Positions 9,105 through 61,839 of a stretch of DNA of 64,000 nt are shown here, piece after piece (within the stretch, counting starts at the first letter, position 1; each line of letters starts with the position of its first letter). Under the pieces are notes generated by a model, which was not told the origin of the DNA, made no database searches, and saw only the letters and a program-made list of their open reading frames with translations. The DNA is from an uncultured Poribacteria bacterium. GTDB taxonomy: Bacteria > Poribacteria > WGA-4E > WGA-3G. Both the position numbers and the translations under genes were made by a program. The DNA lies in the NCBI GenBank assembly GCA_951813565.1, contig OX638351.1, forward strand, positions 4,640,001 through 4,704,000, given 5' to 3'.

Positions 9105-9276
9105 TTGGACCTCCACCCCAGGCTGTTTGGGTGACATGTGGCAACATCCCAAATACTGTTATGCGTGAAATTCTACACCAACACTTTCAAAATGCCATTT
9201 CACGTTTACAAACTGGTATCGCTTTGGTAGAAATCCCTGACTTCACATAAACTACAACCTATCTCAAAAATCATCT

Positions 9277-9385
9277 GTAGGACGAGGTCCCGGGGAATGC
9301 CATAAGGCATTCATACCGTTGATTTGGTGCCTCGCCATGTCTTTCAGATGGAACAACGGGCCGGCACAGGGACCCGCCCCTACAA
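9277..9385. repeat. REP-like palindromes with ggggaatgccataaggcattcataccgttgatttggtgc insert
   Basis: The same motif recurs, often inverted, at about 53570-53790 and 54930-55075. Confidence 0.7.
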
Positions 9386-9466: not shown

Positions 9467-12088
9467 CTACAATTTCTTCGGATTCCAGAATGCACTGATT
9501 ACCGCAGTAATCGGAATTGCTAATACCAAGCCGAGTGTACCCGCCAGCAAACGCACAATCTCCGCTGACACGACTCCAAGGCTTAATAACTGCACTGCAG
9601 GTTCTTTAAAAAATTCAAGATTTGGTGCTGCTATCGTAATCACCAGTAACAACTCCACGCCAAGATAAGCGAATACCAAGGTATTGACCATCGTACCGAG
9701 AATGTCGGTGCCAACATTGAGTCCAGAGGCGATTAATCGCCATGTTGGCATATTCGGGTTTGCGCGGCGAATCTCTTCCATACTTGAAGCCACTTCAATC
9801 GCACCATCAACCGCTACGCCTAAAACTCCCATTAACATTCCTGCCAACAGAATTTGCACGAAATCAAAAGGGGGTGTCCGCGTTGCCTCAACAATATCTG
9901 CAGCAATTGCACTCTCTAAACCCGTAAAATGCAGCTGTTTTTGCGCAAAAAGCACGATCAAACCTGCTACAAGGATACCACCCATTGTTCCCAACACTGC
10001 GGAATAGGTTTTCCGACTCGGACCAATAACAAACACCAACGATACAAAAGCTACTACTCCCGAGGTAAGTGTAACAACAAGAATTGCGTTCATACCCTGT
10101 GAAATCAGGGGAAGCATGAAGAAGTAGATAACCGCACCAGAAATTAGCATCGCACAAACCGTACGGATACCTTCAATTCTTCCGACAAGAATAATAAGCA
10201 GAAACATCCCACCAACAAACCAGATAAGATATTTATCGCGAGCATATTCTTGTACAGTGTTTCCAAGAATAATTTGCTCAGAATCACCTCCAACCTTGCA
10301 AAGTACGATGTCTCCAGGCTCTGCGGGAATGCTTAACAACGGCATACTGTGATTGACAATATTCCGTAAAACTAAGTGTTTCCCTTTATACATCCCACTA
10401 AGTATCTTAACTTCAAGTACATGATTTTCAGTTTCAGCATCATATACGTTGAGATTACTTGTTCCATCATGTGCGATGCGAATACTGTAAGTCTGTTCGT
10501 ACTCTGCATCGGAAATCAACCATCGACTGTCTTTCCACGGTTTTATTGAGATAGTCGCGTCATCGGATAAAGCAATTCTATTGTTAGCAAATGCCTCCCG
10601 TAATGCCGAAGGCACAATTTTCTTCTCTAAATCAGTTGTATTAGTTCCATCAATAGTGAACAGAAGATCTCCAGTTGATTCGAGTAATCGAATCACTTTC
10701 CCCTTTGCATATTCTTGTTTTGTAATAAGTTTTCCTTGTTCATCATGTAATTCAAAAATTGTAGCAGAAAGTCCGCGTGTGCGATAGTAAACAAACGTTG
10801 AACCGATCAACACAAGAATCAATGCGATTGGTACTGCAACTCGGCGGGAAAAAATGCGAGTACCGCTATGTGTTGACTCACTACCGAATAATTCTTCTAA
10901 CTCCTCTTCGGTCGGTAAATTTTCGTGAATCTCCGATCTGCTTACTTCTATATATTTTGTAAGGAAACCTGCAACCGTGGCTGCAATCGGAACGGTAAGA
11001 ACAAGGCCAATAGTTCCAACTACTGCCTGAATAATAGCAACAGCTGTTGTCTCATCGTTAACCAATCGCAGAAACGGATATAAGAAACCTGCTTCAGGAA
11101 AATCGATGCGTGGCAGCAGCATTGTGATCATGTGTGCACCGAGGTAGGCAAAAATAAGCGTATCTGCCATTGTCCCCATAATATCCCGTCCAACGTTCAA
11201 CCCTGCGCGGATAGCTTGTCGGACACTAATGTTCGGATTCACCTGTTTGACTTCATGCACACTGGAAGATATGGACATGCTCACATCCATCATCGCGCCG
11301 ACTGCTCCCAAAATGATGCCAGCAGATAGGATACCTGTAAAATTCCAATGGTGTGCCGCCGGTGTCCGCCATAGTGCAATACCGAGTTCCAGAAAGCCAA
11401 ACTCTTGTGCTAATCCGGTTAATACCATCAAATGTTGGCTGAGGACAGACAAGATACCAACAGCGGTTAATCCTCCCAGTGTCCCGATCACACCTGAGAC
11501 AACTTTGAAACTAAATCCTGTAATGAGAAGGAAAGTTACTAATGTTAGAAATGCAGCGATTAACAACGCTACAGCAATCGGGTTGTAGCCGCTGACAGTT
11601 AGTGGAACAAGGATATAAAGAACAGAGAGGGCAGTAACAAACAATGTCAACATCGCACGTACGCCCTTCATTCCTGCAACCAGTATCATCAGAACCCCTA
11701 AAGCACCTGCAAGGTACAGCAAAAATGGAGTTCTGAAGTACTCTCCCATTGATACAGAATCAATTTTGGGATTTAAAGGATCACGGATTGGAATCTCAAG
11801 AAACAATATATCGCTTTTGCTTATCACACGGTCACTAAAAGCGCGTCCAATCCATATATTGTTTACTTGAACTGTCTCTCCGCGGAATTGGCCGGAGAGG
11901 ATACGGAAGGATAGAATTTGGTCTGCCTCATCACTTGTATCTATGTTAATTACACGTCCTAAACATACCAGAACCTGCAACTCACCACTCTTCGTTACTT
12001 CAGCAAAACGGTAAAGTTTCAGATGTAAAAAGGCAACACTTAGCAGAATAAGCAAAATACCGATGATTTTGATATATGTTTCCCGCAT
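9467..12088 (-). CDS. YibE/F-family membrane protein with two tandem YibE/F domains
   Basis: Twice-repeated G++GAxxDxxxxxSSxxE...NVGxDIxGTMxxTLxFAYLG signature. Confidence 0.88.
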   Translation of the reverse strand: MRETYIKIIGILLILLSVAFLHLKLYRFAEVTKSGELQVLVCLGRVINIDTSDEADQILSFRILSGQFRGETVQVNNIWIGRAFSDRVISKSDILFLEIPIRDPLNPKIDSVSMGEYFRTPFLLYLAGALGVLMILVAGMKGVRAMLTLFVTALSVLYILVPLTVSGYNPIAVALLIAAFLTLVTFLLITGFSFKVVSGVIGTLGGLTAVGILSVLSQHLMVLTGLAQEFGFLELGIALWRTPAAHHWNFTGILSAGIILGAVGAMMDVSMSISSSVHEVKQVNPNISVRQAIRAGLNVGRDIMGTMADTLIFAYLGAHMITMLLPRIDFPEAGFLYPFLRLVNDETTAVAIIQAVVGTIGLVLTVPIAATVAGFLTKYIEVSRSEIHENLPTEEELEELFGSESTHSGTRIFSRRVAVPIALILVLIGSTFVYYRTRGLSATIFELHDEQGKLITKQEYAKGKVIRLLESTGDLLFTIDGTNTTDLEKKIVPSALREAFANNRIALSDDATISIKPWKDSRWLISDAEYEQTYSIRIAHDGTSNLNVYDAETENHVLEVKILSGMYKGKHLVLRNIVNHSMPLLSIPAEPGDIVLCKVGGDSEQIILGNTVQEYARDKYLIWFVGGMFLLIILVGRIEGIRTVCAMLISGAVIYFFMLPLISQGMNAILVVTLTSGVVAFVSLVFVIGPSRKTYSAVLGTMGGILVAGLIVLFAQKQLHFTGLESAIAADIVEATRTPPFDFVQILLAGMLMGVLGVAVDGAIEVASSMEEIRRANPNMPTWRLIASGLNVGTDILGTMVNTLVFAYLGVELLLVITIAAPNLEFFKEPAVQLLSLGVVSAEIVRLLAGTLGLVLAIPITAVISAFWNPKKL

Positions 12089-12130
12089 TTTTTCCTCTCA
12101 GTTTTTGTGTGATCTAATAATAGATATTAG

Positions 12131-12534
12131 CACTCCCTGTCAAACCCCCTGCCTTTAGGTAGGGGATGTAGACAGCTCAGCAGTTTATGTGTCAAAAAAA
12201 CCTTGACACTTTCACCAAAATTTGATATATTGTCTTTAGCAGTCGGCATCGGTTCTGATTGATGTGGTGGTAGACCGCTCGGCAGTGAAACAATCAGGTA
12301 AAAGCCTTGCGATTCAATACTGCTAAAGTTCTTTGTAACATCTATTGCACGTTTAGGGTAGACGCATTGAAAAATGCTCACCCGCTTGAAAAATCACGTG
12401 TCAAAAATAATAAGTTGCCTTCGGGCAAGTGGCTGGCTTAGCAGCCACTGTGGAGCAGATGTAAGACGCTTCTTCGGAAACGCTAACTGCTACGAAGCAC
12501 AAGCCCCTGCCTTTAGGTAGTGGGTCACTATGAC
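12131..12534 (+). mobile_element. 404-bp non-autonomous IS200/IS605-type element, copy 1 (no tnpA or tnpB)
   Basis: Identical by eye to 60827-61230; subterminal hairpins cccctgcctttaggtagggg and cccctgcctttaggtagtggg; preceded by TTAG, ends TGAC, no target-site duplication. Confidence 0.88.
12203..12231 (+). promoter_or_regulatory. Sigma70-type promoter inside the element
   Basis: TTGACA-17 bp-TATATT with extended TG; the -35 overlaps inverted repeat gtgtcaa-N7-ttgacac. Confidence 0.75.
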
Positions 12535-12554
12535 AGCAAATTACATGCCAATAC
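12234..12554 (+). ncRNA. Structured RNA ending in a TnpB omegaRNA-like scaffold plus flank-derived guide (copy 1)
   Basis: Multiple stems with GAAA and cUUCGg tetraloops; ctgtggag...gtaagac...gaagcacaagcccctgcctttagg resembles IS605 right-end RNA; ends inferred. Confidence 0.6.
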
Positions 12555-12660
12555 AAAAATATCGTGCTTCCGAGAAAACGCACTTCAGCACTCACTACAG
12601 TTGCACGATAAGGGGCAGGACAAATTAAAAAGCACAAATTCGGGCAGCTTTATCAAATTA

Positions 12661-13009
12661 CTATAGTTTGGACAATTCTTGTCTTGTGGAAGTTAAGTTT
12701 ACAACAGAAAGCTATTTTTCTATGAGTTTTACATATCAGTGGAAACCTGCGAAAAATGCTGCACGCCAGTGGAGTGCTATGTCTATAGAAAACGGTATGT
12801 GCCCATGCTTGCACGCCAGCGGAGTGCTATGTGTCGAACCTCATACCGCTCCGCTGGAGCGGTATGAGGTTCATAATGTGGCTATAAACATATTGCTCCG
12901 CTGGAACAAAGAGGGTTTCTGTTTTGTTCATGGTGTCTTGATTGGAAACCTAAGTGGTGGACCAATTTCTTATATCAACTCACGTTTGAAAAAATTATTT
13001 AAACTATAG
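12661..13009. mobile_element. MITE-like element
   Basis: Imperfect ~20-bp TIR ctatagtttggacaatt / aattatttaaactatag; internal gcacgccagyggagtgctatgt twice and cataccgctccgctggagcgg shared with 1741-1890. Confidence 0.65.
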
Positions 13010-17107: not shown

Positions 17108-17959
17108 TTAGGTGCGGGCTTGCAAGCGCGCGAGTTGTTCTTGGAGTTTTGCGGCTTCCGCTTCTGCCTGTTCGGCACGTGCTTCGGCAGTTTCTGCGCG
17201 TATGGCTTCCTGTTCAGCGTGTGCTTCGGCAGTTTCTGCACGTGTGGTTTCTTGTTCAGCGCGTGCTTCGGCAGTTTCTGCGCGTATGGCTTCCTGTTCA
17301 GCGCGTGCTTCGGCAGTTTCTGCGCGTATGGCTTCCTGTTCAGCAAGCGATAGTGCTGACTCCGCAGGTGTTTGAAGCCACTCATCTGCAACTGGGTCAT
17401 AAATACCTAAACCCACATTATCAACATGGAAATCTAAACCCAGAGCAGAAGAATGTAAACCGCCAGTCGGACCTGCTGAAATCGGAACATACACATCATC
17501 AACCAACTCAAAACCCATCAGCGCGGATGGTAAATACAATCCCTCTGCATCATATAATAAGTAGTCTTGTATTCCCAATAAACCGTAAAGTTCCAACTTT
17601 TTACCTAAGTCGTCTCGGTATGTGTTTTTGCTTGAAAACTCCATCGCGAAATCAGGCACCTTCCCTTCCTCCCAGACCTTATACGTCCTTCGGAGTTTCT
17701 TACCTAAACCGAAAGTGACCAGAACATCTGGCGCAACTGATTTACGCGGGTCTCCCTCCACATAATACATCAGTATATCACCAGATACATAGACTTCCGG
17801 TCTTTCTTCAAAATGCGTATCAAGAACTTGTAATGTTCGAATAAGGATTCGTCTGTGAAGGTCGCTGACTGCCATCGGTTTTCCATCCGTTTCTGGATAA
17901 ATGTCTAACTCATCTGTAGGTACGGAAGGGATATCGAGTCCTTTTAGATAAGTAGTCAT
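17108..17959 (-). CDS. Uma2 family endonuclease with C-terminal coiled-coil repeats
   Basis: YPETDGKPMA, APDVLV, EFSSKNT; AEQEAIRAETAEAR repeats. Confidence 0.88.
   Translation of the reverse strand: MTTYLKGLDIPSVPTDELDIYPETDGKPMAVSDLHRRILIRTLQVLDTHFEERPEVYVSGDILMYYVEGDPRKSVAPDVLVTFGLGKKLRRTYKVWEEGKVPDFAMEFSSKNTYRDDLGKKLELYGLLGIQDYLLYDAEGLYLPSALMGFELVDDVYVPISAGPTGGLHSSALGLDFHVDNVGLGIYDPVADEWLQTPAESALSLAEQEAIRAETAEARAEQEAIRAETAEARAEQETTRAETAEAHAEQEAIRAETAEARAEQAEAEAAKLQEQLARLQART
17160..17345. repeat. 42-bp tandem repeat, about 4 units, coding
   Basis: gtgcttcggcagtttctgcgcgtatggcttcctgttcagcgc repeated with few substitutions. Confidence 0.9.
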
Positions 17960-30789: not shown

Positions 30790-31788
30790 ATGTTATCACG
30801 TAATAAGATTACAGAGATGGGCGGTTGGTGTTACCTCCTTACTATCCTTACAAGCATATTACTATTAGTTTCTTGTGTGCCTACTACTCTTAATTCGACA
30901 GGTTCGGCACCAGTTCGAGTGAGCGATGGATACGCTGAGATTAAAGAAATTGAGGAAAAACTTTCAATAACCAGCGAACCGGTTACTGCGGAGATGTTAA
31001 TCGAGAAATCAAGGACTTTTATCAAAGCACACCCGAAATATAAACAGGTGGGTGAGGTCTACCATATCCTCGGAACTACTTTGGTTCAGTTTGATCGGAC
31101 TGAAGAAGGAATTGAGGTTTTAGAAGAGTTTATTAGGTACTACCCGCTTGCTACTTCCGTTGAACCGAGTTTGTTAACATTGGGATTGGCTTACGACAAA
31201 GCCAACATGCATGACAAAGCAGATGTAGTCTATGAAAAATTGGTAAATACGTCAAAGTACAGTAGCGGAGAGTCCGCCAAAACCGCACGGCAATTGTTGC
31301 AAATGGATAAATCTGAGAGAAAAGGTGCGCTTGAAGGATTACCTGATGGATCCGGCAGAACTAATTTTGTTGGTCAAGCGGCATTAGATTTTCAGGTAAC
31401 AGACCTGAATGGTGAACCGTTATCGTTAGAAAAATTTAAAGGGCAAGTTGTGCTTCTTGATTTCTGGGCAACGTGGTGTCCACCTTGCATCGCGGAGATG
31501 CCGAACGTGAAGCGAACCTATGAAAAGTATAAAAATCAGAATTTTCAGATTATCGGTATCAGTTTAGATAACGGGAAAGCACCACTTAAGGATTATATTG
31601 AAAAAGAAGGAATTATGTGGCCACAATATTACGACAACAGCAGCCAGATTTCCGATATGTACCAGGTCCAATCCATTCCGTCAACTTTTCTGATTGATGG
31701 TGACGGGATTATCCGTAAAACGAATCTCCGCGGAAATGCCCTTGAGGTTGCTGTTGGTCAACTTGTGCAGGAAAATATGGCGCAGTAG
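30790..31788 (+). CDS. TPR plus TlpA-type redoxin lipoprotein
   Basis: LVSC lipobox; TPR-like helices; DFWATWCPPC. Confidence 0.85.
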   Translation: MLSRNKITEMGGWCYLLTILTSILLLVSCVPTTLNSTGSAPVRVSDGYAEIKEIEEKLSITSEPVTAEMLIEKSRTFIKAHPKYKQVGEVYHILGTTLVQFDRTEEGIEVLEEFIRYYPLATSVEPSLLTLGLAYDKANMHDKADVVYEKLVNTSKYSSGESAKTARQLLQMDKSERKGALEGLPDGSGRTNFVGQAALDFQVTDLNGEPLSLEKFKGQVVLLDFWATWCPPCIAEMPNVKRTYEKYKNQNFQIIGISLDNGKAPLKDYIEKEGIMWPQYYDNSSQISDMYQVQSIPSTFLIDGDGIIRKTNLRGNALEVAVGQLVQENMAQ

Positions 31789-31870
31789 ACGACTGAATGG
31801 GGCTGACACAGTGCCCTGTCCTACAATCAAAAGAACGTTCATGGTTTTCACAAATCTGAGGAGGTATACA

Positions 31871-34192
31871 ATGTTTATCCGAAATCAAACAACACTAATT
31901 GAAAAAAAATACACAAGGTTCTCGGTTCGTAGTTTTAGCATCTTCGCAATTATTGTGCTACTCGGTTTTTGTGTTAACCTTGCCAGTGTTGATTCTGCGG
32001 AAACAAGCACAACTGTTAGTACAAAGGAAATAAGAGACAAATATGATGAAATTAAGACGATTGCTAAGAAACTTACTAATCAAAGTGTGCCAGAAGAATT
32101 GGAGAAATTAGTTGAAAAGTCAACGGATTTTATTGCAGCGTTTCCAGAATACAAACGTATAGATGAGGTCTACTACCGTCTTGGCAACGCCTTAGTTCGG
32201 TTGGGCCGTGTTGAAGAAGGTATTAAAGTTTCTGAAGAATTTATCAAGAAACATCCAGATGCGCGTTGGGTCGCACCGATTTTGTTAGAATTGGGTATGG
32301 CTTACGACAAGCTCGGTAAACATTATAAAGCAGATGAAACGTATAAAAAGCTGGTAGACCACCCAAAGTATGGTGACCGATCGTATGCCCAACAGGCCAA
32401 AAAGATCCTTGAACAAGATAAAGCCTCGCGAACGGGCGAATTACCCAAACCTCCTGGGGCAAGTTCTATACCTATAAGTGAATTGGTCGGTAAATCAGCA
32501 CCGGATTTTCAGGTGAAAGATTTGAAAGGTGAAGAACTCTCGTTGAAAAAATACCGAGGACAAGTTGTACTTGTTGACTTCTGGGCAACATGGTGCGGGC
32601 CGTGTCTTGTAGAGTTACCTAACGTTAAGAGAACTTATGAAAAATACAAGGATCAGAATTTTCAGATTATCGGTATTAGTTTAGATAGGTCAAAACAACC
32701 ACTTGAGACGTTTATTGAAAGAGAAGGGCTTGCCTGGGACCACTATTGGGATCAAAGCCAAAAGATAACGACTCAATATGGGGTGCGAGGAATTCCATCA
32801 ACCTTTTTGCTTGACGGTGCGGGCGTTATTCGTAAGACAAATCTCCGTGGGCATTCGCTTGAGGCTGCTGTTGGTGAATTGGTGAAAGAAAATCTCGCTA
32901 AACCTGCTGATACTTCCACGAAAACACCCGCATCCAAGTCAATTCCCGCAACAGAGATCCTTAAAAGGGATATAACTTCCCGACAAGTAGAACCGATTGA
33001 GTCAATCAGATCAGGAATAAATGAGTGGGTTGGCAAACCCGCTCCAGATTTTGAGGTGATGGATTTGCAGGGTGAAGCACTCTCGTTGGAGAAATACCGT
33101 GGGCAGGTTGTGCTTCTTGACTTCTGGGCAACATGGTGTGGTCCCTGTCTCGCCGAGATGCCTAAAGTTAAGAAGACTTATGACAAGTACAAAGATCAAA
33201 AGTTTCAGATTATTGGGATTAGCTCGGACAGATCAAAGCCACCACTTGAAGCTTATGTTGAGAAAGAGGGACTCGATTGGATTCACATTTGGGATGAAAA
33301 TCGTAAATTGAGAAATCTATACGGGATAATAGGAATCCCGACAGCCTTTTTGATTGACGGTGAAGGTGTTATCCGAAAAGCGAGTCTCGGTGGTTTTGAT
33401 GTTGAAACTGCTGTTGCTGAATTGGTTAAGGAAAATCTTGCGAAACCTGCTAATCCAGCTCAACCTGAAAAAACACCCTCCGATTTTCCTACAGATAACC
33501 AAACGGTAGATCCTAAAGCGAAAGCAATTATTGCTGCTGCTGTTGCTGCCCACGGTGGGCTTGAGAAACTGCAAGCCGTGAAAAACATTGTGATTGAATC
33601 CGATAGTTTTGAACACTTTCCAGATGATTCCGTGCAGGATGAGGGACGGAGTAAATCCTACTTTTATACTAACAAACTCCGTAGCGATTGGCACATGGAC
33701 GACAGCGTAGATAGTATAATCTACGATGGAAACACTTTGTATCAGTTGGAAAATGGAGAGAACAAACCTATTCCACCAGAGGCGGCTAAGTCTTTTATTG
33801 ACTTCCTCAAAGATAGCCTTTTCCGAGAACCGATCTGGCTTCTGATAAACCTCTCACAAAACGAGATTCCCGTTCAATATATGGGAACGGCGAAGGTGAA
33901 AGATGTTCCTACATCTGTTCTTCTTGTTACGCAGCCTTCTGGGAGTGATCTCAAAATTTTCATTAGTGATGAAACACACTATGTGGTGCAGTTCAATTAT
34001 AGTCTTGAGATAGGAGGAGTAACAAAAAACATGGAGACGGTATTTGAAAATTATCGTGATGTAGACGGCATTAAAATCGCGTATCATCGCACCACAAAAA
34101 ACGGAGAATATCGACAAATTGCTATCACCGACATTAAGTTAAATGCTGAAATTGACGAAGCGCTGTTCAGTCCTAAAGAATCGAATGAATAG
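31871..34192 (+). CDS. Exported TPR protein with two TlpA redoxin domains and a LolA-like C-terminal domain
   Basis: DFWATWCGPC twice; AAHGGLEKL...YRDVDGIKI tail; start moved to ATG 31871 after GAGGAGG. Confidence 0.8.
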   Translation: MFIRNQTTLIEKKYTRFSVRSFSIFAIIVLLGFCVNLASVDSAETSTTVSTKEIRDKYDEIKTIAKKLTNQSVPEELEKLVEKSTDFIAAFPEYKRIDEVYYRLGNALVRLGRVEEGIKVSEEFIKKHPDARWVAPILLELGMAYDKLGKHYKADETYKKLVDHPKYGDRSYAQQAKKILEQDKASRTGELPKPPGASSIPISELVGKSAPDFQVKDLKGEELSLKKYRGQVVLVDFWATWCGPCLVELPNVKRTYEKYKDQNFQIIGISLDRSKQPLETFIEREGLAWDHYWDQSQKITTQYGVRGIPSTFLLDGAGVIRKTNLRGHSLEAAVGELVKENLAKPADTSTKTPASKSIPATEILKRDITSRQVEPIESIRSGINEWVGKPAPDFEVMDLQGEALSLEKYRGQVVLLDFWATWCGPCLAEMPKVKKTYDKYKDQKFQIIGISSDRSKPPLEAYVEKEGLDWIHIWDENRKLRNLYGIIGIPTAFLIDGEGVIRKASLGGFDVETAVAELVKENLAKPANPAQPEKTPSDFPTDNQTVDPKAKAIIAAAVAAHGGLEKLQAVKNIVIESDSFEHFPDDSVQDEGRSKSYFYTNKLRSDWHMDDSVDSIIYDGNTLYQLENGENKPIPPEAAKSFIDFLKDSLFREPIWLLINLSQNEIPVQYMGTAKVKDVPTSVLLVTQPSGSDLKIFISDETHYVVQFNYSLEIGGVTKNMETVFENYRDVDGIKIAYHRTTKNGEYRQIAITDIKLNAEIDEALFSPKESNE

Positions 34193-36950: not shown

Positions 36951-36990
36951 TATGGGAGTCCTGTGTGTCTTGTCAAAAGAATTTCATTAT

Positions 36991-38847
36991 TTAATCAAAA
37001 TTTTGTGCGACAATGGTGAGGTCTAATATGTTGACAACGCCATCTTTATTGACATCTACCTTCGGGTTATTGGGTTTCTCTACTCCAAAATTTTGCGCGA
37101 CGAGTGTAAGATCAAGGATGTTGACGACACCATCACTGTTAACGTCTCCAAACCGCCAGTTTTGTCGTTCCCGTGCGAGTTCAAATAACTTAAAAGTTTC
37201 AGGTCGGTATTGTTCTTGCAAATCCTTTGCGGTAATAATCCGAATGGTGAGCAAAATATCCCACACATCGTATTCAGGGAAATATTTTTGATATTCCTCA
37301 GCGCGAAGATCCGGATTGGGTATAGCACGTCCGCAGAGTTTTGTATAGGGCGAAAACAGAAAAGAGCTAATCGGATGCGATTGCTCCGTTGGTGGAATGC
37401 GCGAGATATACGCATAACTTTCGTGTAGAAAGGTGATATCATTAATTTCTTCTCCACCCAGAGCGATGCCCGGTATTGCCTCTCTGAGCTCTTGATGTAG
37501 CAAGATATTACCTTCTGCCATCGTCAAGCCGTCAATAAGTCCATTGTTATCGTTTTCAATTTTATAACTAATATCAAGATCAAAGCCATCCACTTGGTAT
37601 CTATCCCATACGTTTCTTACTTTGTCAACGAACATCTGTCTATATGCACGTGAAGCGGGATTAATAAAAGCATGTCGGTATGGGTCTGTTGGGTCGTCCC
37701 ATGCCCATCCTCTTTTTTTACCTGTATTCGGATCACGTATTTGATATTTCTCAAACGCCGCATAAAGCGGATGATACTCTGAAACGCCGAGCATACTTAT
37801 ATGTGCCGTTACCTTGAATCCGTAGCGATGTGCCTCCTTGACGAAATCAGCGAACTCCGGTTTCACCGCATCGGGACCATGATTCGGCAAATCCCCGTCG
37901 TGTCCACCATGTCTCCATTGGTGTATATGTATCAACGTTTGCTCAGGATCCACGAGTCGACTGAGGGGTGCTAAAATGTCAACGTCTACATTCGAGTGAA
38001 TTATCATCAATTCAATATCGTTGACCCATGCGGGCATCTCGGTTCGATCAACAGGTTGGAGTGCCTCATGCATCCATTGTTGATACGCAAGTGCGGGCAC
38101 TTGCCAGTCGCCTTGATAGGCGTTCAATCGCCATGTGGCAGTTGTGATCTCTTTCGCCTGCTCAAAAGGTGCGAACGGCACTTCCCAAAAGTTAAGAAAA
38201 AAACTCTCGCCTTCGGGACGACATTCAAGCGATTTGAACCGATATTGTGTATCGTCGCTACGGATAAAACAACCACCGTGGTGTCCTTGAAGAATAACAA
38301 GGGGTGTTTGCCATTTTACCGGGTAGTGGTATCTATCAGATTGCGTAAGGATGAGACCACCTAAGACAGGCGCGATGACATCTACGGATGCCTCAGAGAG
38401 ATTCGAGAACCCCCACATAATTCGTTCAATACCACCCATGTTTGAGAACCCTGTTTGCCGAATGAGCAGATCCCCGGTTTCCGCATCTATCCCGATAAAC
38501 AGGTGAAGCATCACCTCATTATTACGTGGAGCACGCCAGTTGTCCTGATAGATGAGTTGGCATTCGAGCGGTGAGTGTCTTTTTATTTTCTCTGGTACAA
38601 GGTTTTCTGTTCTTAAGCCTCTACCCCACGCTTTCATCTCTGTGTTTCCCTGGAGATCGCCTTGCGTATAAGTCTCCTGTGTGAGTTTGTTATGGAAATG
38701 CGTCAGCACACCATTTTCAAAGCGTGCCAAATAACGATCTGTCTCCGCGAGGACATTGCCCACTTCATCAACCGTCAGTGTATTGGGGTAGACAGAGAGA
38801 AGTAAAACAAGTTGCAATATAACGATAGAAGCTATTAATTTTTTCAT
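36991..38847 (-). CDS. Secreted glycoside-hydrolase-like (DUF6259-like) protein with dockerin, paralog A
   Basis: Signal peptide; TIM-barrel-like core with DGFDLD; C-terminal DVNxDGVVNILDL twice. Confidence 0.7.
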   Translation of the reverse strand: MKKLIASIVILQLVLLLSVYPNTLTVDEVGNVLAETDRYLARFENGVLTHFHNKLTQETYTQGDLQGNTEMKAWGRGLRTENLVPEKIKRHSPLECQLIYQDNWRAPRNNEVMLHLFIGIDAETGDLLIRQTGFSNMGGIERIMWGFSNLSEASVDVIAPVLGGLILTQSDRYHYPVKWQTPLVILQGHHGGCFIRSDDTQYRFKSLECRPEGESFFLNFWEVPFAPFEQAKEITTATWRLNAYQGDWQVPALAYQQWMHEALQPVDRTEMPAWVNDIELMIIHSNVDVDILAPLSRLVDPEQTLIHIHQWRHGGHDGDLPNHGPDAVKPEFADFVKEAHRYGFKVTAHISMLGVSEYHPLYAAFEKYQIRDPNTGKKRGWAWDDPTDPYRHAFINPASRAYRQMFVDKVRNVWDRYQVDGFDLDISYKIENDNNGLIDGLTMAEGNILLHQELREAIPGIALGGEEINDITFLHESYAYISRIPPTEQSHPISSFLFSPYTKLCGRAIPNPDLRAEEYQKYFPEYDVWDILLTIRIITAKDLQEQYRPETFKLFELARERQNWRFGDVNSDGVVNILDLTLVAQNFGVEKPNNPKVDVNKDGVVNILDLTIVAQNFD

Positions 38848-38858
38848 TACAATCTCCT

Positions 38859-39008
38859 TTAAATTAACCTGTTTAAAGTAGTCGGCATAATAGTGAGCGA
38901 AAATAAAGTGACCGTGTGTCCATAGCCTGCCTGCGCGAGTGAATCGGCGAGCATTGATTTGCCAGCAGCTTTAGACCCGTTGAGCAAAATAAAATTATGG
39001 GTTCGCAT
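38859..39008 (-). pseudogene. Truncated P-loop kinase-like ORF (49 aa)
   Basis: MRTHNFILLNGSKAAGKSMLADSLA...; Walker A right after a beta strand; overlaps the upstream gene by 14 nt; too short for a full domain. Confidence 0.55.
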
Positions 39009-39690
39009 ACTGTTCTCTGAGTTTTTTGAAACCGGGCATCATGCTATAATCAGCAGATTGCCAGACAGGATAATTGCCAGTCCCGACATCAAACCCCGCA
39101 AATTCGGAGATACCAACAACAACATTCTCAATGTTATCAAAATCCTCGTAGAAGATGAAATGACATTTGTGTTCATATCCACTATAGAGCGAGGGAAAGA
39201 ACCTATAAAACACGTTCGCTCGAAGGAAGTAATACGCAAACTTATCGTCATCTATTTGATAATCTTTGAGGATGTTCTCCCTGTATTTTGTCCAAACTTT
39301 ATGAGGGTTTTTCTGTTTGACTCCTCGGTCAAAGACTTGAGAACCGAACCAGTCCGTCAGGGCATGCATGAACCGGTCTTTACGACCTAACACCACGATT
39401 TTAGGGGACTGATGGATGAGGTAGTCAGAAAATGCTAACCACTGAACGAGATTTGGATCCTCAGTACTAAAGTTGTGATACCGTAAAAACTGAATTGATA
39501 AGTCTCCTATACCGTTATTTTTCCTATAAAGATTCGGATCAACAGGGTTGGTAGAACCTCCATCTTTGAGATAGTTGAGAAAAGTCACCCCTGTCAATGA
39601 AGCACACTTAATACTGTCTTGTAGGAAGTGCGACCCTGACCTTTTTTGTGCGATAATAAGTAGTTTGGGTATCTCGATTTGATAGTCCAT
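38995..39690 (-). CDS. Sulfotransferase-like protein
   Basis: IIAQKRSGSHFL (5'-PSB-like loop), IVVLGRKD, IFYED. Confidence 0.6.
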   Translation of the reverse strand: MDYQIEIPKLLIIAQKRSGSHFLQDSIKCASLTGVTFLNYLKDGGSTNPVDPNLYRKNNGIGDLSIQFLRYHNFSTEDPNLVQWLAFSDYLIHQSPKIVVLGRKDRFMHALTDWFGSQVFDRGVKQKNPHKVWTKYRENILKDYQIDDDKFAYYFLRANVFYRFFPSLYSGYEHKCHFIFYEDFDNIENVVVGISEFAGFDVGTGNYPVWQSADYSMMPGFKKLREQYANP

Positions 39691-39711
39691 TTTATTCCTT
39701 TTTTATGATCA

Positions 39712-40374
39712 TTAGAAAAACTCAGTTTTCAAGAATCTCATCTCTTGTATGCCTATTGTTTTTTTCGTTTCATCTTTCATAATAGGATCAAGATAGCTAT
39801 ATCCGTTCTCAACGATTGTTGCAATCAGAATGTCAGATGCTTCCCCTTTGCTTACATATTTTCTCTTTTCTTCCTGAATCATAGCAGGAGAGTGTAATTC
39901 AATAGTTATGAAAGTGGGTAAGAGAGGCCACTCCGCCATGTCATTGAAGATATAATGTTCATATCCGTCAATATCAAGCGCGAAGATATCAAAGGTTGGC
40001 GGTGAAATTTGATTAATTAGATGCTTCATGGTTATGTAAACGTGCATCTTATTGTGGATTGGAAAATTATACCATTCACTTCCATGATATCTTGATGTTG
40101 GTTCTATCAAATAGTGGGTATCACTAATTCCGGCGCATATCCACGTGACGTTGGTGAAATCTTTATATCGATCACTATTCGCCACATGCGCTATAGATTC
40201 AGGTTCAATATCAATACCATAATACTTAAACGGTGTTGAATCTTCTGTAAACAATTCAGGAAGGATGTGCTGAGGTCGATCAAGTACCGTTCTCATGTAA
40301 TCAACCCAATCATATTGAGTAAGGTATGCCCAATCTGCGCTTGTATTCAGGCCAAGTTGTATGCATGTTCTCAT
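39712..40374 (-). CDS. FkbM-like methyltransferase-fold protein
   Basis: IQLG, YGIDIEP, LDIDGYE, ITIELH. Confidence 0.6.
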   Translation of the reverse strand: MRTCIQLGLNTSADWAYLTQYDWVDYMRTVLDRPQHILPELFTEDSTPFKYYGIDIEPESIAHVANSDRYKDFTNVTWICAGISDTHYLIEPTSRYHGSEWYNFPIHNKMHVYITMKHLINQISPPTFDIFALDIDGYEHYIFNDMAEWPLLPTFITIELHSPAMIQEEKRKYVSKGEASDILIATIVENGYSYLDPIMKDETKKTIGIQEMRFLKTEFF

Positions 40375-40377
40375 ATA

Positions 40378-42261
40378 TTAACCTATTTGTTGTGCGACAA
40401 TGGTGAGGTCTAATATGTTGACAACGCCATCTTTATTGACATCTACCTTCGGGTTATTGGGTTTCTCTACTCCAAAATTTTGCGCGACGAGTGTGAGGTC
40501 GAGAATGTTGACGACACCATCGCTGTTTACGTCTCCGAATACCCAGTTTTGGCGTTTCCTTGCGAGTTCTAATATTTCATACGTTTCTGTTAATTCTGAA
40601 TCTAAATCTGATACCCCATCAAGTCTAAGGGTAGGGATTACCTCCCATATTCGATAGGCGTGGACATATTCCTGATACCTAACGGGATCTCTATCAGGAT
40701 TAGGAAAACCTAAGTGTCCATAGAATCTGGTATAAGGTGAAAACAGAAAGGAACTGATCGGATGAGGTTGCTCTGTTAAACCAATTAACAGTTGCTGTGC
40801 AAAACTTTCATGTAGAAAGGTAACATCATTGATGAGTTCGCCACCAAGAGCGATACCGGGCATTGCTTCTCTCAATTCTTGATGAAGCAAAATATTGCCC
40901 TCTGCCATTCTCATTCCTTTAATAGAGTAAACATTATCTACACTAAAGCTGAGATCTAGATGAAACGCATCAATATTATAAGTTTCCCATACATTTTTTA
41001 GCCGATTTATCAATAAATTTCTAAAATCCTCTGAAGCAGTATTGATAGAAACATAACCTCTTAATGGGTCTGGAGAATCCAAATGTGCACCTACTATTTC
41101 TCCTGTAATTGGGCTAGTAATTTGGTGTTTTTTTATTTTTTCATAGAATGGATTAGCAGGTGAAACAGCCAGCATATTTACATGCAGCATTACTTTAAAC
41201 CCATAACTATGCGCTTTCTGAAGAAATTCTCCAAAATTATCTGTTGGTGTATAATCAGGGTAATTCCAACGCCATCCTGCTTTTCGCCATCCTGTAACGT
41301 ATAATAGTGTTTTTTCAGGATCTACATATCGAGAAAGTATATCTATGACACTTGTACCTACACTTTCTAAAGGATCAGCATGAGTTATAACTAATTCAAT
41401 ATCATTTACCCATGCAGGCATTTCTTCACGATTGGCAGGCTTTAGTGAATTATGCATCCATTCTCTATAAATCGTAGCGGGGACTTGCCAATCACCTTCG
41501 TAAGCATTTATTCGCCATGTAGCTATTGCTATTTCTTTTACATCTTCAAATGGAACATGGGGGATTTCCCAAAAATTAATGGCAAAATCTTTACCTTGTG
41601 GAATATACTCAAGTAATTTGAATCTGTATTGGTCATCATCGCTACGAATAAATACTCCTCCATGCTGTCCTTGAAGTATCGCAAGTTGTGCTTCCCACTT
41701 CCCTGGATATTGGTATCTAACTCTCTCTGCTACAATAGAACTGGGAGTAAGGATTTGCCCTCCTTTTACAGGTACAATGGTATCTACAACTTCTTCAGAA
41801 AGATTAGAAAATCCCCACGCAATATTTCCTATTCCTCCCATTTTCAGTGTCCCTTTTTGTTTAATGAGAAGATCATTTGTTTCAGTATCTATACTAATGT
41901 ATAAATGTAAGGTTGCTTGATTGTCCTGTGGTTTACTTCGCCAATTATCTATATAGATGAGTTCACATTCAAGTGGAGAGGGTATTTTTATCTCTGATAA
42001 GTTACCTTTTGTTTCTAATTTTCGTCCACCAAATTGTCTAATTGATGTATATCCAGCCGCATTACCCCGCGTATAGTTTTCCTGCGTGAGTTTATTGTAA
42101 AAAGCTGTGATTACGCCATGTTCAAAGCGCACACGATAGTTATCCGTCTCCGCGAGGACATTGCCCGCTTCGTCAACCGTCAAAGTGTTAGCCGACCCAG
42201 CCGCAACTAAAACAAACTGCAATATCAGGATATACGCACATTTAGCCCAGAAACTTCTCAT
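40378..42261 (-). CDS. Secreted DUF6259-like protein with dockerin, paralog B
   Basis: Same architecture as paralog A; DAFHLD; dockerin repeats. Confidence 0.7.
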   Translation of the reverse strand: MRSFWAKCAYILILQFVLVAAGSANTLTVDEAGNVLAETDNYRVRFEHGVITAFYNKLTQENYTRGNAAGYTSIRQFGGRKLETKGNLSEIKIPSPLECELIYIDNWRSKPQDNQATLHLYISIDTETNDLLIKQKGTLKMGGIGNIAWGFSNLSEEVVDTIVPVKGGQILTPSSIVAERVRYQYPGKWEAQLAILQGQHGGVFIRSDDDQYRFKLLEYIPQGKDFAINFWEIPHVPFEDVKEIAIATWRINAYEGDWQVPATIYREWMHNSLKPANREEMPAWVNDIELVITHADPLESVGTSVIDILSRYVDPEKTLLYVTGWRKAGWRWNYPDYTPTDNFGEFLQKAHSYGFKVMLHVNMLAVSPANPFYEKIKKHQITSPITGEIVGAHLDSPDPLRGYVSINTASEDFRNLLINRLKNVWETYNIDAFHLDLSFSVDNVYSIKGMRMAEGNILLHQELREAMPGIALGGELINDVTFLHESFAQQLLIGLTEQPHPISSFLFSPYTRFYGHLGFPNPDRDPVRYQEYVHAYRIWEVIPTLRLDGVSDLDSELTETYEILELARKRQNWVFGDVNSDGVVNILDLTLVAQNFGVEKPNNPKVDVNKDGVVNILDLTIVAQQIG

Positions 42262-42295
42262 AACTTCATCTCCTTCTTGTGTTATTTCGTGTTTT

Positions 42296-53549: not shown

Positions 53550-53935
53550 TATTGTAGGGGCGGGTCTCTGGGGAATGCCAAAAGGCATTCGGACCCGGTG
53601 AAGACTAAAGACGAATGCGCCAAATCAACGGTCCGAATGCCCTTTGGCATTCCCCGTATGGCATTCGCCATGGTTCATACCGTTGATTTCTTGATTTGGT
53701 GCCTGCCCGTTGCATAGCACGTCCTGCGCAGTGGCGGGGCACCAAATCAACGGTATGAATGCCTTATGGCATTCCCCGGGACCCCGCCCTACAGTGGACG
53801 CCGCGTAATCATTGCAAATTGAACCTATGTAACCAAATATTTACACACCCACATCAGCATCAGAGGCATTCAATTGTCAGCTTATTATCCGTTTTAGGCG
53901 AAAGGTCGCGACCAGGAGGTCGCTCCTACAGGAAG
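53550..53935. repeat. Cluster of nested REP-like palindromes
   Basis: gtaggggcggg...cccgccctac with gaatgcc...ggcattc and aaatcaacgg units; related to 9277-9385 and 54830-55075. Confidence 0.75.
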
Positions 53936-60675: not shown

Positions 60676-60826
60676 TCAACGTAAAAAAGTTGGTATTTTC
60701 TGACAATCTGATGTATAATTTGGAATATGGCACAATACTACGATAACGCAGTCAAATATGTCATGCTTGGGCATTCTCAAGAATTTGCAGAATTCATGGT
60801 AGGACACTCAAACATCAAAGTATTAG

Positions 60827-61230
60827 CACTCCCTGTCAAACCCCCTGCCTTTAGGTAGGGGATGTAGACAGCTCAGCAGTTTATGTGTCAAAAAAACCTT
60901 GACACTTTCACCAAAATTTGATATATTGTCTTTAGCAGTCGGCATCGGTTCTGATTGATGTGGTGGTAGACCGCTCGGCAGTGAAACAATCAGGTAAAAG
61001 CCTTGCGATTCAATACTGCTAAAGTTCTTTGTAACATCTATTGCACGTTTAGGGTAGACGCATTGAAAAATGCTCACCCGCTTGAAAAATCACGTGTCAA
61101 AAATAATAAGTTGCCTTCGGGCAAGTGGCTGGCTTAGCAGCCACTGTGGAGCAGATGTAAGACGCTTCTTCGGAAACGCTAACTGCTACGAAGCACAAGC
61201 CCCTGCCTTTAGGTAGTGGGTCACTATGAC
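60827..61230 (+). mobile_element. 404-bp non-autonomous IS200/IS605-type element, copy 2
   Basis: Identical to 12131-12534; boundaries fixed by reading-frame restoration of the host gene. Confidence 0.9.
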
Positions 61231-61839
61231 AGAAACTTGAAACGGAGCAACCGACCCTCAAGACGCATCAAAATGATAGCACTTTGAAGGTACAGCTTCC
61301 TGATGAAACAGTTATATTTCACACTGAAGTGCAAGCAGACGACAGTAGAAAACCGATGCATTATCGCCTTGCAGGGTATAACGGTTTTCTTATTAATTTA
61401 CACGAAATGCCTGTCTATTGTAACGTTCTCTATCTACATCCTAACGCAGGTAGAGATGATAATGGCCACTATGCTTACAAAGGGATGGGGTACGAATATA
61501 CGCTTCACTATAAGGTGCTCAGACTGATTGAGATAGACGGACAATCAATATTGGAAAAGCAGGCACCCGGGTTACTACCTTTTACTCCGCTGATGGAAGC
61601 ACCAGAAGGAATGGATGCCAACCGTTGGTTGGAAAAATGTATTGATGCGACAGCATCTGCAAGCATAGATCAGCATACTCGGGATATTTTACTCGCGGCA
61701 CTTGGTATTTTCGGCGGTTTAGTTTATGAACCACAACTAATTAAACAATTTTTACCGGAGGGTATCATGCAAGAATCTCCTTTTTTCCAACACGTTATTC
61801 AAGAAGCAACAACAAAAGCAAAAAAAGAGGCTTACAAAG

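What the first reader, a model, noticed from the sequence alone, without database searches (positions are those of the whole stretch)
12131..12554. Protein-free IS200/IS605-type element that looks like a mobile guide-RNA cassette
Seen: two identical 404-bp copies 48.7 kb apart, each directly 3' of (TA)TTAG, ending TGAC, with no target duplication, matching left and right subterminal hairpins, an internal near-consensus promoter, and no credible ORF. Established: IS200/IS605 elements insert 3' of a tetra/pentanucleotide via the HUH transposase TnpA, and TnpB uses a right-end omegaRNA whose guide comes from flanking DNA. The last ~90 nt (ctgtggag..gtaagac..gaagc..cccctgcctttagg) resemble that scaffold. 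Inference: each insertion yields a new guide (copy 1 agcaaattacatgccaatac; copy 2 agaaacttgaaacggagcaa) for a TnpB-family protein supplied in trans, with TAM near TTAG, giving a dispersed, self-renewing guide set.
Basis: partly seen in the sequence, partly recalled or inferred. Interest (0 to 1): 0.9.

Follow-up and report, generated by a model that had tools for sequence, protein, structure and literature searches.

The report
Gene-less transposon carrying guide-RNA gene
This is a small mobile DNA element without any protein gene that carries its own promoter and a roughly 300-base structured RNA, whose last third looks like the guide RNA used by the TnpB nucleases encoded elsewhere in the genome; the idea is already published, but the conserved extra RNA domain at its front is not explained.

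Summary
Window 12131-12534 and 60827-61230 are identical 404-bp elements, and the genome holds five such copies. Each lies directly 3' of TTAG, and copy 2 is a precise insertion with no target duplication.

It is an ORF-less IS200/IS605 derivative (a PATE). Its ends match resident tnpA+tnpB and tnpB-only elements. A conserved promoter drives a ~298-nt RNA that stops at the right end.

The last ~106-113 nt are homologous, with compensatory base changes, to the right-end RNA region downstream of tnpB. This supports a trans-acting omegaRNA whose guide is the right flank. Transcription across the right end and TnpB binding were not shown.

The concept is in print: Meers 2023 and Altae-Tran 2023 describe PATE or standalone omegaRNAs that act in trans.

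What looks new is a strongly covarying ~150-190-nt 5' domain. A covariance model did not find it in tnpB-linked elements. It occurs in 47 of 99 sampled genomes of one Poribacteria family and in 0 of 51 from other families. It is combined with at least three kinds of transposon end, and sits behind sigma-70-like or ECF-like promoters.

Verdict: new variant of a known kind; moderate interest.

The parts
12127..12130 (+). TTAG target / transposon-adjacent motif of copy 1
   Evidence: 28 of 28 paired elements with these ends follow TTAG.
12131..12534 (+). Copy 1 of the 404-bp ORF-less IS200/IS605 derivative (PATE)
   Evidence: It is one of 5 identical copies in the genome. The ends are fixed by the empty sites of copy 2.
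12146..12165 (+). Left-end subterminal hairpin (CCCCTGCC-TTTA-GGTAGGGG)
   Evidence: Read. Left end positions 1-46 are 96% identical to the left end of resident tnpB/tnpA elements.
12203..12231 (+). Promoter TTGACA-17-TATATT with TG
   Evidence: It sits at the same place as the promoter of the full IS605. Of 52 relatives examined, my stricter script rule found a sigma-70-like motif at this fixed position in 31, and by eye 3 more have weaker -35 hexamers; 18 have an ECF-like motif.
12237..12385 (+). Conserved 5' RNA domain (helices P1-P5)
   Evidence: Covariance model R1 matches here at 158 bits. Covariation is shown.
12415..12428 (+). UUCG-capped hairpin (TTGCC-TTCG-GGCAA)
   Evidence: The stem changes in a compensatory way among relatives: GCAC/GTGC, GATAC/GTATC, GACCC/GGGTC. 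Read from the alignment.
12429..12534 (+). omegaRNA-like 3' scaffold shared with tnpB-linked right ends
   Evidence: 79-81% identity to family B right ends over element positions 301-404. The shared structure is 93.5% paired, and 15 of 25 pairs change on both sides.
12504..12524 (+). Right-end subterminal hairpin
   Evidence: helix 12.
12529..12534 (+). Right-end terminus TATGAC (cleavage motif)
   Evidence: Present at the right end of the elements of this end type listed; one unpaired right end reads TATGAA.
12535..12554 (+). Inferred guide of copy 1 (right flank)
   Evidence: By position only, following the rule for TnpB omegaRNAs. No transcript was shown.
60823..60826 (+). TTAG of copy 2
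60827..61230 (+). Copy 2 of the PATE, a precise insertion
   Evidence: Empty orthologous sites in 8 of 8 relatives examined.
61231..61250 (+). Inferred guide of copy 2
   Evidence: By position. TTAG followed by this sequence is exactly the empty site seen in relatives.

Best explanation
The element is a non-autonomous IS200/IS605 transposon (a PATE). It keeps four things:
- the left and right subterminal hairpins that the resident Y1 transposase TnpA needs;
- the promoter that drives tnpA/tnpB in the parent element;
- a ~298-nt RNA gene in place of the protein genes;
- the right-end boundary as the end of that RNA's scaffold.

The last ~106-113 nt of the RNA are the omegaRNA scaffold of the local TnpB nucleases. 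Transcription should therefore run into the flank, and the first 16-20 flank bases should serve as the guide.

Inferred mechanism. TnpA excises the element and reseals the donor as TTAG plus flank. A TnpB made by another element, loaded with this RNA, cuts that empty site. Repair from a sister copy then restores the element. In this way the gene-less element exploits both TnpA (to move) and TnpB (to be retained).

The conserved 5' domain is a module specific to these elements. Its role is unknown. My best guess is that it stabilises or processes the RNA, or helps it compete for TnpB in trans.

What is shown: the element's anatomy, the precise insertion, the homology, the RNA structure, the conserved promoter, and the presence of tnpA and tnpB. 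What is inferred: transcription across the end, loading onto TnpB, and cleavage.
For: Ends and target site:
- Left end 46 nt at 96% and right end 41 nt at 93% identity to 16 tnpB-only elements of 1362-1365 bp and 2 full IS605 elements of ~1751 bp.
- TTAG precedes 28 of 28 elements.
- Empty sites in 8 of 8 relatives examined.

Proteins supplied in trans:
- TnpA matches Y1_Tnp at 1e-40. TnpB matches OrfB_IS605 and Cas12f1-like_TNB.
- Family A TnpB matches the solved ISDra2 TnpB at 7e-44 over residues 28-369.
- The genome holds 5 tnpA loci and 45 tnpB loci.

Scaffold homology:
- Element positions 301-404 are 79-81% identical to family B right ends.
- In a joint alignment of 10 tnpB-linked and 22 PATE right ends, 93.5% of cells are paired, against 78% in shuffles and 34-48% when partners are slid. 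15 of 25 pairs change on both sides.
- A long-range helix near -86/-84 with -36/-34 lies where ISDra2 pairs -84..-81 with -35..-32. The solved scaffold is 116 nt (passages read).

The RNA as a whole:
- 48 predicted pairs, 25 of them compensatory, 98.1% paired.
- G-U pairs fit only the promoter strand.
- A promoter-like motif sits at a fixed distance in all 52 relatives examined.

Expression:
- The whole element sits in contigs of three RNA libraries from one study at depth 15-33, while this window's single-copy flanks have depth 0.

Literature:
- Meers 2023 and Altae-Tran 2023 state that PATE or standalone omegaRNAs exist and act in trans.
Against: - No start, end or strand of a transcript is known. 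Contigs cannot show them, and DNA carry-over in the RNA libraries is not excluded. One RNA-library contig spans 12144-12499, which starts upstream of the predicted start.
- The scaffold is family B-like, but family B elements follow TCATCA rather than TTAG. Family A shares only the last 41 nt by BLAST. A TnpB that accepts this scaffold and also reads TTAG is therefore assumed.
- The pseudoknot that defines TnpB and Cas12 guide RNAs could not be confirmed. The candidate is 86% paired, with one cell changed on both sides.
- The 5' domain is better conserved than the scaffold. It travels with at least three different end types. It is not found in tnpB-linked elements. This would also fit a cargo RNA whose function does not involve TnpB.
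- In ISDra2 the region 5' of -116 is dispensable, so the omegaRNA model does not predict a conserved 5' domain.
Confidence: 0.6

Rival explanations
1. The real cargo is the conserved 5' RNA domain. It would be a new structured RNA with a function of its own, such as a regulator, a ribozyme or a protein-binding RNA. It hitch-hikes on IS200/IS605 ends. The omegaRNA-like part would be a leftover of the parent element or an accessory.
For: - The 5' domain has long invariant unpaired stretches and strong covariation.
- It is joined to three right-end classes (..TGAC..GTATGTCAA..TATCAC) and to several target motifs.
- It is not found in tnpB-linked elements, even with search filters off.
- About a third of members swap the sigma-70-like promoter for an ECF-like one. 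That suggests regulated expression.
Against: - In every class, the RNA keeps about 100 nt of the matching omegaRNA-type scaffold beyond what TnpA needs. That scaffold has compensatory changes.
- All members whose flanks I inspected lie inside transposon ends with the RNA ending at the right end.
- No Rfam family matches.
Confidence: 0.2
2. The RNA guides a domesticated or nuclease-dead TnpB relative (TldR-like), or another effector. It would then regulate genes next to each insertion rather than serve transposon retention.
For: - Copy 1 lies 43 bp upstream of the start of a YibE/F-like gene.
- Four distant TnpB-like loci (28-32% identity) exist and were not inspected.
- TldR systems are in print (abstracts seen in the listings).
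Against: - The guide equals the element's own flank, so its natural target is the empty site.
- For each of the five guides, the only perfect 16-nt match in the shown part is the flank itself. Part of that output was cut.
- The copies are identical and one sits inside an ORF-like region, so the insertions look recent and selfish.
Confidence: 0.1
3. It is an inert deletion derivative (a plain MITE). Its interior is junk, and the promoter and folds are leftovers.
For: - The promoter is inherited from the parent element.
- The copies within this genome are identical, so they carry no selection signal on their own.
Against: - The family is kept in 48 of 151 sampled genomes of the phylum (including this one), with 1-14 copies each.
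- 25 of 48 pairs are compensatory and 98% of cells are paired.
- The promoter motif keeps its position in all 52 relatives examined.
Confidence: 0.05

Closest known systems
PATEs (palindrome-associated transposable elements) of IS200/IS605, as noted in Geobacillus stearothermophilus by Meers et al. 2023 (PMC10055086, passages read) and first named in Haloquadratum (PMC3119063, search listing only)
   Same: - No ORF.
- IS200/IS605 left and right subterminal hairpins.
- Mobilised in trans.
- Meers et al. write that PATEs 'often encode omegaRNAs' that TnpB from other elements must act on.
   Different: - It has its own conserved promoter.
- A ~150-190-nt covarying 5' RNA domain is not found in the tnpB-linked elements.
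- One RNA body is combined with several end types.
- It is confined, in the genomes sampled, to one Poribacteria family.
Standalone omegaRNAs of OMEGA systems (Altae-Tran et al. 2021, as summarised in PMC10691335, passage read; the 2021 paper itself was not seen)
   Same: They are mobilised guide-RNA loci without an effector or transposase, in genomes that hold effector loci. They are reported to work in trans.
   Different: Whether those loci resemble effector-linked omegaRNAs throughout was not checked here. In this case only the 3' third is shared with tnpB-linked copies. In-trans activity is untested here.
ISDra2 TnpB omegaRNA (Nakagawa et al. 2023, PMC10097598, passages read)
   Same: - The scaffold of about 110 nt ends at the right end.
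- The guide is the flank.
- A long-range helix lies at nearly the same distances from the end.
- Family A TnpB is homologous to ISDra2 TnpB.
   Different: - No sequence similarity was tested.
- The pseudoknot is not confirmed.
- In ISDra2 the region 5' of -116 is tnpB coding sequence and is dispensable. Here it is a conserved non-coding domain.
IS605-type PATE with IStron ends in Clostridioides difficile (Zedaveinyte et al. preprint 10.1101/2023.11.20.567912, figure legend passage read)
   Same: An ORF-less element that keeps the ends of a composite IS605 element carrying a structured RNA.
   Different: No group I intron was found here: Rfam gave no match. The 5' domain is far smaller than such an intron.

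Membership tests
IS200/IS605 non-autonomous element (PATE) | No protein-coding gene | tested here: met
   The longest ORF is 84 aa. It has no Pfam hit. Its frame is broken in 31 of 55 homologues and shows no codon periodicity.
IS200/IS605 non-autonomous element (PATE) | Subterminal hairpins at both ends rather than terminal inverted repeats | tested here: met
   Hairpins at 12146-12165 and 12504-12524 have nearly the same sequence in the same orientation.
IS200/IS605 non-autonomous element (PATE) | Insertion 3' of a fixed tetranucleotide without target duplication | tested here: met
   TTAG in 28 of 28 elements. 8 of 8 empty sites have zero bases between the flanks.
IS200/IS605 non-autonomous element (PATE) | Ends shared with an element that encodes a Y1 (HUH) TnpA in the same genome | tested here: met
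   The left end is shared with the 1751/1752-bp elements that carry Y1_Tnp at 1e-40.
IS200/IS605 non-autonomous element (PATE) | Excision and integration by TnpA | not testable with these tools
   Five identical copies and further insertion sites in RNA-library contigs suggest recent mobility. This is indirect evidence only.
TnpB omegaRNA | Scaffold encoded at the right end, ending at the transposon boundary, with the guide in the flank | tested here: met
   By position and by homology to tnpB-linked right ends.
TnpB omegaRNA | Structure shared with effector-linked omegaRNAs | tested here: met
   Joint alignment A4: 93.5% paired, 15 of 25 pairs change on both sides, covariation 0.416 against 0.02-0.08 when partners are slid.
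TnpB omegaRNA | Pseudoknot between the 3' tail and the 5' stem region | tested here: inconclusive
   The candidate (loop UUAG/UUGG with tail CUA/CCU) is 86% paired, but only one cell changes on both sides.
TnpB omegaRNA | Transcript that reads into the flank | tested here: inconclusive
   The element is present in RNA-library contigs, but contigs show no ends. Raw reads were not available.
TnpB omegaRNA | Binds TnpB and directs TAM-dependent cleavage | not testable with these tools
   Needs RIP-seq and an interference or cleavage assay.
Any Rfam family | Match to a curated covariance model | tested here: not met
   No match better than E = 0.012 in 11800-12900, and none inside the RNA on its strand. 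The tnpB-linked right ends also give no match, so Rfam's silence says little.

The most novel reading that the evidence does not exclude
The ~150-190-nt 5' domain is a new functional RNA module that turns a bare omegaRNA scaffold into an autonomous guide-RNA gene. Possible roles are self-processing, ligand or stress sensing, or high-affinity capture of TnpB. Such a module would let a gene-less element outcompete the TnpB-encoding elements for their own nuclease. Its spread across several IS200/IS605 end types, and its swap between housekeeping and ECF-type promoters, would then reflect selection on the RNA itself.
Probability: 0.25. Interest if true: 0.75.

Novelty: new variant of a known kind. 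Interest (0 to 1): 0.5.

Why it matters
The biological role of standalone omegaRNAs is stated to be unknown (PMC10691335, passage read).

This family offers a natural case in which the guide-RNA gene has been separated from tnpB. It has its own promoter and an extra conserved domain. It recurs, with 167 reported matches of the 5'-domain model in 48 of the 151 genomes sampled.

That makes three questions testable:
- How do trans-acting guides compete with cis-encoded ones?
- What, beyond the ~116-nt core, can improve a TnpB guide RNA?
- Do gene-less elements parasitise both the TnpA and the TnpB of their relatives?

The 5' domain may also be of use as a stabilising add-on for compact TnpB editors.

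If the RNA proves to be a plain omegaRNA with a passive leader, the finding is an ordinary new PATE family.

Tried and rejected
Rfam. The permissive scan of 11800-12900 gave only chance-level hits. The control on tnpB-linked right ends also gave none. Rfam cannot decide the question.

Minus-strand 84-aa ORF. Rejected as a gene.

5' domain hidden inside tnpB coding sequence. Rejected as far as model R1 can see. It hits only the 6 PATE copies in the genome. With filters off it scores no more than 6.7 bits in tnpB-linked loci.

Upstream ORFs in relatives that lack a sigma-70 promoter. No ORF ending within 70 nt upstream of the RNA exceeded 131 codons, the translations carry left-end hairpin sequence, and TnpB homology was not tested. 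In the divergent class III loci no ORF of 90 aa or more on the RNA's strand ends within about 220 nt upstream.

Pseudoknot test. Inconclusive.

Second targets of the guides. In the shown part the only perfect 16-nt matches are the flanks themselves. The output was cut for part of copy 1's list.

RNA evidence. Only Logan contigs were available. They show the element in 3 RNA libraries of one study, with other flanks. They cannot show a start, an end or the strand. The window flanks have no cover.

Earlier findings of the scan. The look-up by sequence found nothing. The genome look-up returned only an IscB/CRISPR note.

My guess that copy 2 interrupts an Rpn-like gene was not borne out: the orthologous ORFs have no Pfam match.

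Not in print, as far as searched. A search for Poribacteria together with IS200, TnpB, MITE or transposase listed no Poribacteria paper among its top 15 of 2,327. No supplementary files were read.

Full report
**Observation.**
- The stretch 12131-12534 is repeated exactly at 60827-61230. The identical run is 412 bp because both copies are preceded by TATTAG and followed by AG.
- The window lies in a single-contig genome of 5.43 Mb with 43% G+C.
- BLAST of the 404 bp finds five copies at 100% identity, plus one diverged copy at 73% over positions 88-404.
- It also finds many partial matches to the first 46 nt (93-96% for the 46-47-nt matches; a few shorter ones lie outside this) or the last 41 nt (90-95%). 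When paired, these delimit 16 elements of 1362-1365 bp, two of 1751/1752 bp, two other 407-bp elements and three odd sizes.
- All 28 paired elements lie directly 3' of TTAG and end in TATGAC.

**What the longer elements are.**
- The 1751/1752-bp elements encode a 139-aa Y1 transposase (Pfam Y1_Tnp, 1e-40) and a 370-aa TnpB (OrfB_IS605 and Cas12f1-like_TNB). The ~1365-bp elements encode TnpB alone.
- This TnpB matches the solved ISDra2 TnpB at E = 7e-44 over residues 28-369.
- tblastn finds 5 tnpA loci and 45 tnpB loci in the genome. They fall into family A (87-100% identical for the full-length copies, 83-88% for three partial ones), family B (48-49% to A, 373 aa), a family at ~55%, a family at ~41% with a different right end, and four distant loci.
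A cognate-type gene is present, TTAG is conserved, and the repeat is not an artefact.

**Exact ends.**
- I searched the genus with copy 2 plus 400 bp on each side. In many genomes the two flanks are adjacent.
- In 8 of 8 loci inspected, the junction reads ..AAAGT(A/C/T)TTAG|AGAAACTTG.. with no base in between.
- Copy 2 is therefore a precise 404-bp insertion after TTAG with no target duplication. This is the hallmark of IS200/IS605.
- The empty site is also exactly what a guide taken from the right flank would recognise.

**Promoter.**
- TTGACA-17-TATATT preceded by TG lies at 12203-12231.
- It occupies the same position as the TTGACA-17-TATAAT promoter of the full IS605 and of the tnpB-only elements. 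Family B elements have an equivalent one.
- The element has therefore kept the parent's left end and promoter, and has replaced the genes.

**The family.**
- Homologues at 75-88% identity over the whole length occur in other species of the genus.
- An exact-pattern scan of 185,579 species' genomes with a 22-nt conserved core gave 65 loci. Of these, 64 are in records titled Poribacteria.
- 53 of the loci are non-redundant RNAs with a recognisable end. 37 end in ..TGAC (class I) and 16 end in ..GTATGTCAA (class II).
- A more divergent class III, found with the covariance model, ends in ..TATCAC and follows TTATC-type motifs.
- The members whose flanks I inspected have a left-end hairpin and a promoter-like motif at a fixed distance from the RNA start. 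In the class III loci no ORF of 90 aa or more on the RNA's strand ends within about 220 nt upstream.
- Of 52 loci with enough upstream sequence, 31 passed my script's sigma-70 rule, always with a 17-nt spacer. By eye, 3 more have weaker -35 hexamers. The other 18 carry (C)TAAAC-N17-18-CGTCTAA. From memory, that resembles the AAC/CGT consensus of ECF sigma factors. No call tested this.

**RNA structure.**
- On 39 class I RNAs (alignment A2), RNAalifold predicts 48 pairs, 25 of which keep pairing after changes on both sides.
- Counting on that structure gives 98.1% of cells paired. Column shuffles give 84.0%, and sliding the partners gives 34-46%.
- The covariation score is 0.442, against 0.05-0.07 for slid partners.
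- The structure was derived from the same alignment, which favours it, but the margin is large.
- G-U pairs, including one invariant U-G, fit only the strand read from the promoter.
- A UUCG-capped hairpin at 12415-12428 changes its stem in a compensatory way (alignment). MAFFT does not keep it in register, so I read it by eye.

**Two domains: the 3' scaffold.**
- The last ~106-113 nt are homologous to the sequence downstream of tnpB. Identity is 79-81% to family B over element positions 301-404.
- The same motifs (GTGGAGC, TAAGAC, GAAGCACAAG, the end hairpin) recur in families A, B and the 55% family.
- In a joint alignment of 10 tnpB-linked and 22 PATE right ends, a structure of 25 pairs is 93.5% paired, and 15 pairs change on both sides.
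- The solved ISDra2 omegaRNA scaffold is 116 nt and pairs -35..-32 with -84..-81. Its 5' region (-231 to -117) is dispensable (passages read).
- Here a helix joins about -86/-84 with -36/-34, a similar topology.
- The defining pseudoknot could not be confirmed.

**Two domains: the 5' domain.**
- The 5' domain spans about 12237 to 12428 on the window, of which model R1 covers 12237-12385.
- R1 (150 positions, built from 55 sequences) finds only the six PATE copies in this genome. It finds nothing in tnpB-linked loci even with filters off.
- Across the phylum sample it is present in 47 of 99 genomes of this family (18 of 37 and 29 of 57 in the two genera that have matches). It is in 0 of 51 genomes of other families, among those searched. 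Copy number is 1-14 per genome.

**Which TnpB?**
- The element is a chimera. Its left end and right-end hairpin are family A-like. The scaffold upstream of the hairpin is family B-like, for example the GCAG/CTGC helix and GCTAACTGCTACGAAGCACAAG.
- Family B elements follow TCATCA, not TTAG. A TnpB that reads TTAG, presumably family A, would have to accept this scaffold.
- The differences between the A and B scaffolds lie mostly in compensated stems, so cross-use is plausible. It is not shown.
- In other species the same RNA body sits behind left ends that follow TTAA or TCAT. The ends have therefore been exchanged repeatedly around the RNA.

**Expression.**
- One search for sequencing runs gave four poly-A 'transcriptomic' metagenome runs of one study that hold about a third of the 1.1-kb query, plus sponge metatranscriptomes with small shares.
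- In the three runs of that study that I laid, the whole element is covered by contigs of depth 15-33, while the single-copy flanks of this window have depth 0.
- One 1032-nt contig carries the element between other flanks, again after TTAG. This points to further insertion sites in the sampled population.
- Contigs cannot show transcript ends or strand, and DNA carry-over is possible. I count this as weak support only.
- In a sponge metatranscriptome, short contigs over the shared scaffold (12489-12525) reach depths of 229 and 875. This fits abundant right-end RNAs from many elements.

**Comparison with what is known.**
- Meers et al. (preprint PMC10055086, passages) found PATE-like elements in Geobacillus. 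They state that PATEs 'often encode omegaRNAs' that would need TnpB from other elements.
- Altae-Tran et al. 2023 (PMC10691335, passage) state that standalone, mobilised omegaRNAs exist, function in trans, and have an unknown biological role.
- Three things are not described in the passages I read, nor in the top 15 listed of 2,327 results of the search: a conserved, covarying 5' domain not found in effector-linked copies, its combination with several end types, and the promoter swap.

**Verdict.**
It is unproven as to function, and it is not novel as a concept.
- This is a new variant of a known kind, with one real unknown: the 5' domain.

Noticed in passing
G000:C1:4985928-4986334 and 365561-365967 (L035); related solo right end at G000:C1:1854320-1854420 (L036): A second, unrelated ORF-less element of 407 bp uses the same family A ends. 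It has a different G+C-rich interior and a family A-like scaffold. Rfam gives no match.
   Followed up: partly
L085-L087, L090, L096, L098, L099, L103, L104, L106, L108, L113, L116, L118, L137-L139, L144 (45 nt upstream of the RNA): In 18 of 52 relatives the sigma-70-like promoter is replaced by (C)TAAAC-N17-18-CGTCTAA at the same position. From memory this resembles ECF sigma-factor promoters.
   Followed up: partly
L084 and L097: A 407-type element appears to be inserted inside the RNA gene of a 404-type element, a nested insertion (alignment).
   Followed up: no
window 12657-12720: A separate ~60-nt repeat has about 20 partial copies (79-89% identical) scattered over the genome. A weak Chlorobi-1 hit lies nearby at 12753-12797 (19.8 bits, gathering score 50).
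   Followed up: no
L032:1300-1400 region (family B tnpB leader, G000:C1 about 1845130-1845230): Family B tnpB has a ~95-nt leader with long self-complementary stretches between its promoter and the start codon.
   Followed up: no
window 12489-12525, run X6: Short metatranscriptome contigs over the shared right-end scaffold reach depths of 229 and 875. Loose ends run into other termini (..GCTATCAC), which points to many expressed right-end RNAs in sponge symbionts.
   Followed up: no
window 17127-17378; 31357-33316; 699-2168; 36984-44185; 9275-9337 with 53732-53794: Other repeats in the window: a 42-bp tandem array, several diverged direct-repeat families, and a 63-nt inverted pair 44 kb apart.
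   Followed up: no
window 12088-12131: Copy 1 lies 43 bp upstream of the start codon of an 873-aa YibE/F-like gene on the minus strand, and downstream of uvrC. It may have displaced that gene's promoter.
   Followed up: no
G000:C1 159903, 2448711, 5065082, 5222191, 5253841 and others: At least nine right ends of another class (..GGGGAGTATGTCAA) occur in the genome. Several lie next to the 41% tnpB family. The same end class carries class II RNAs in relatives.
   Followed up: partly
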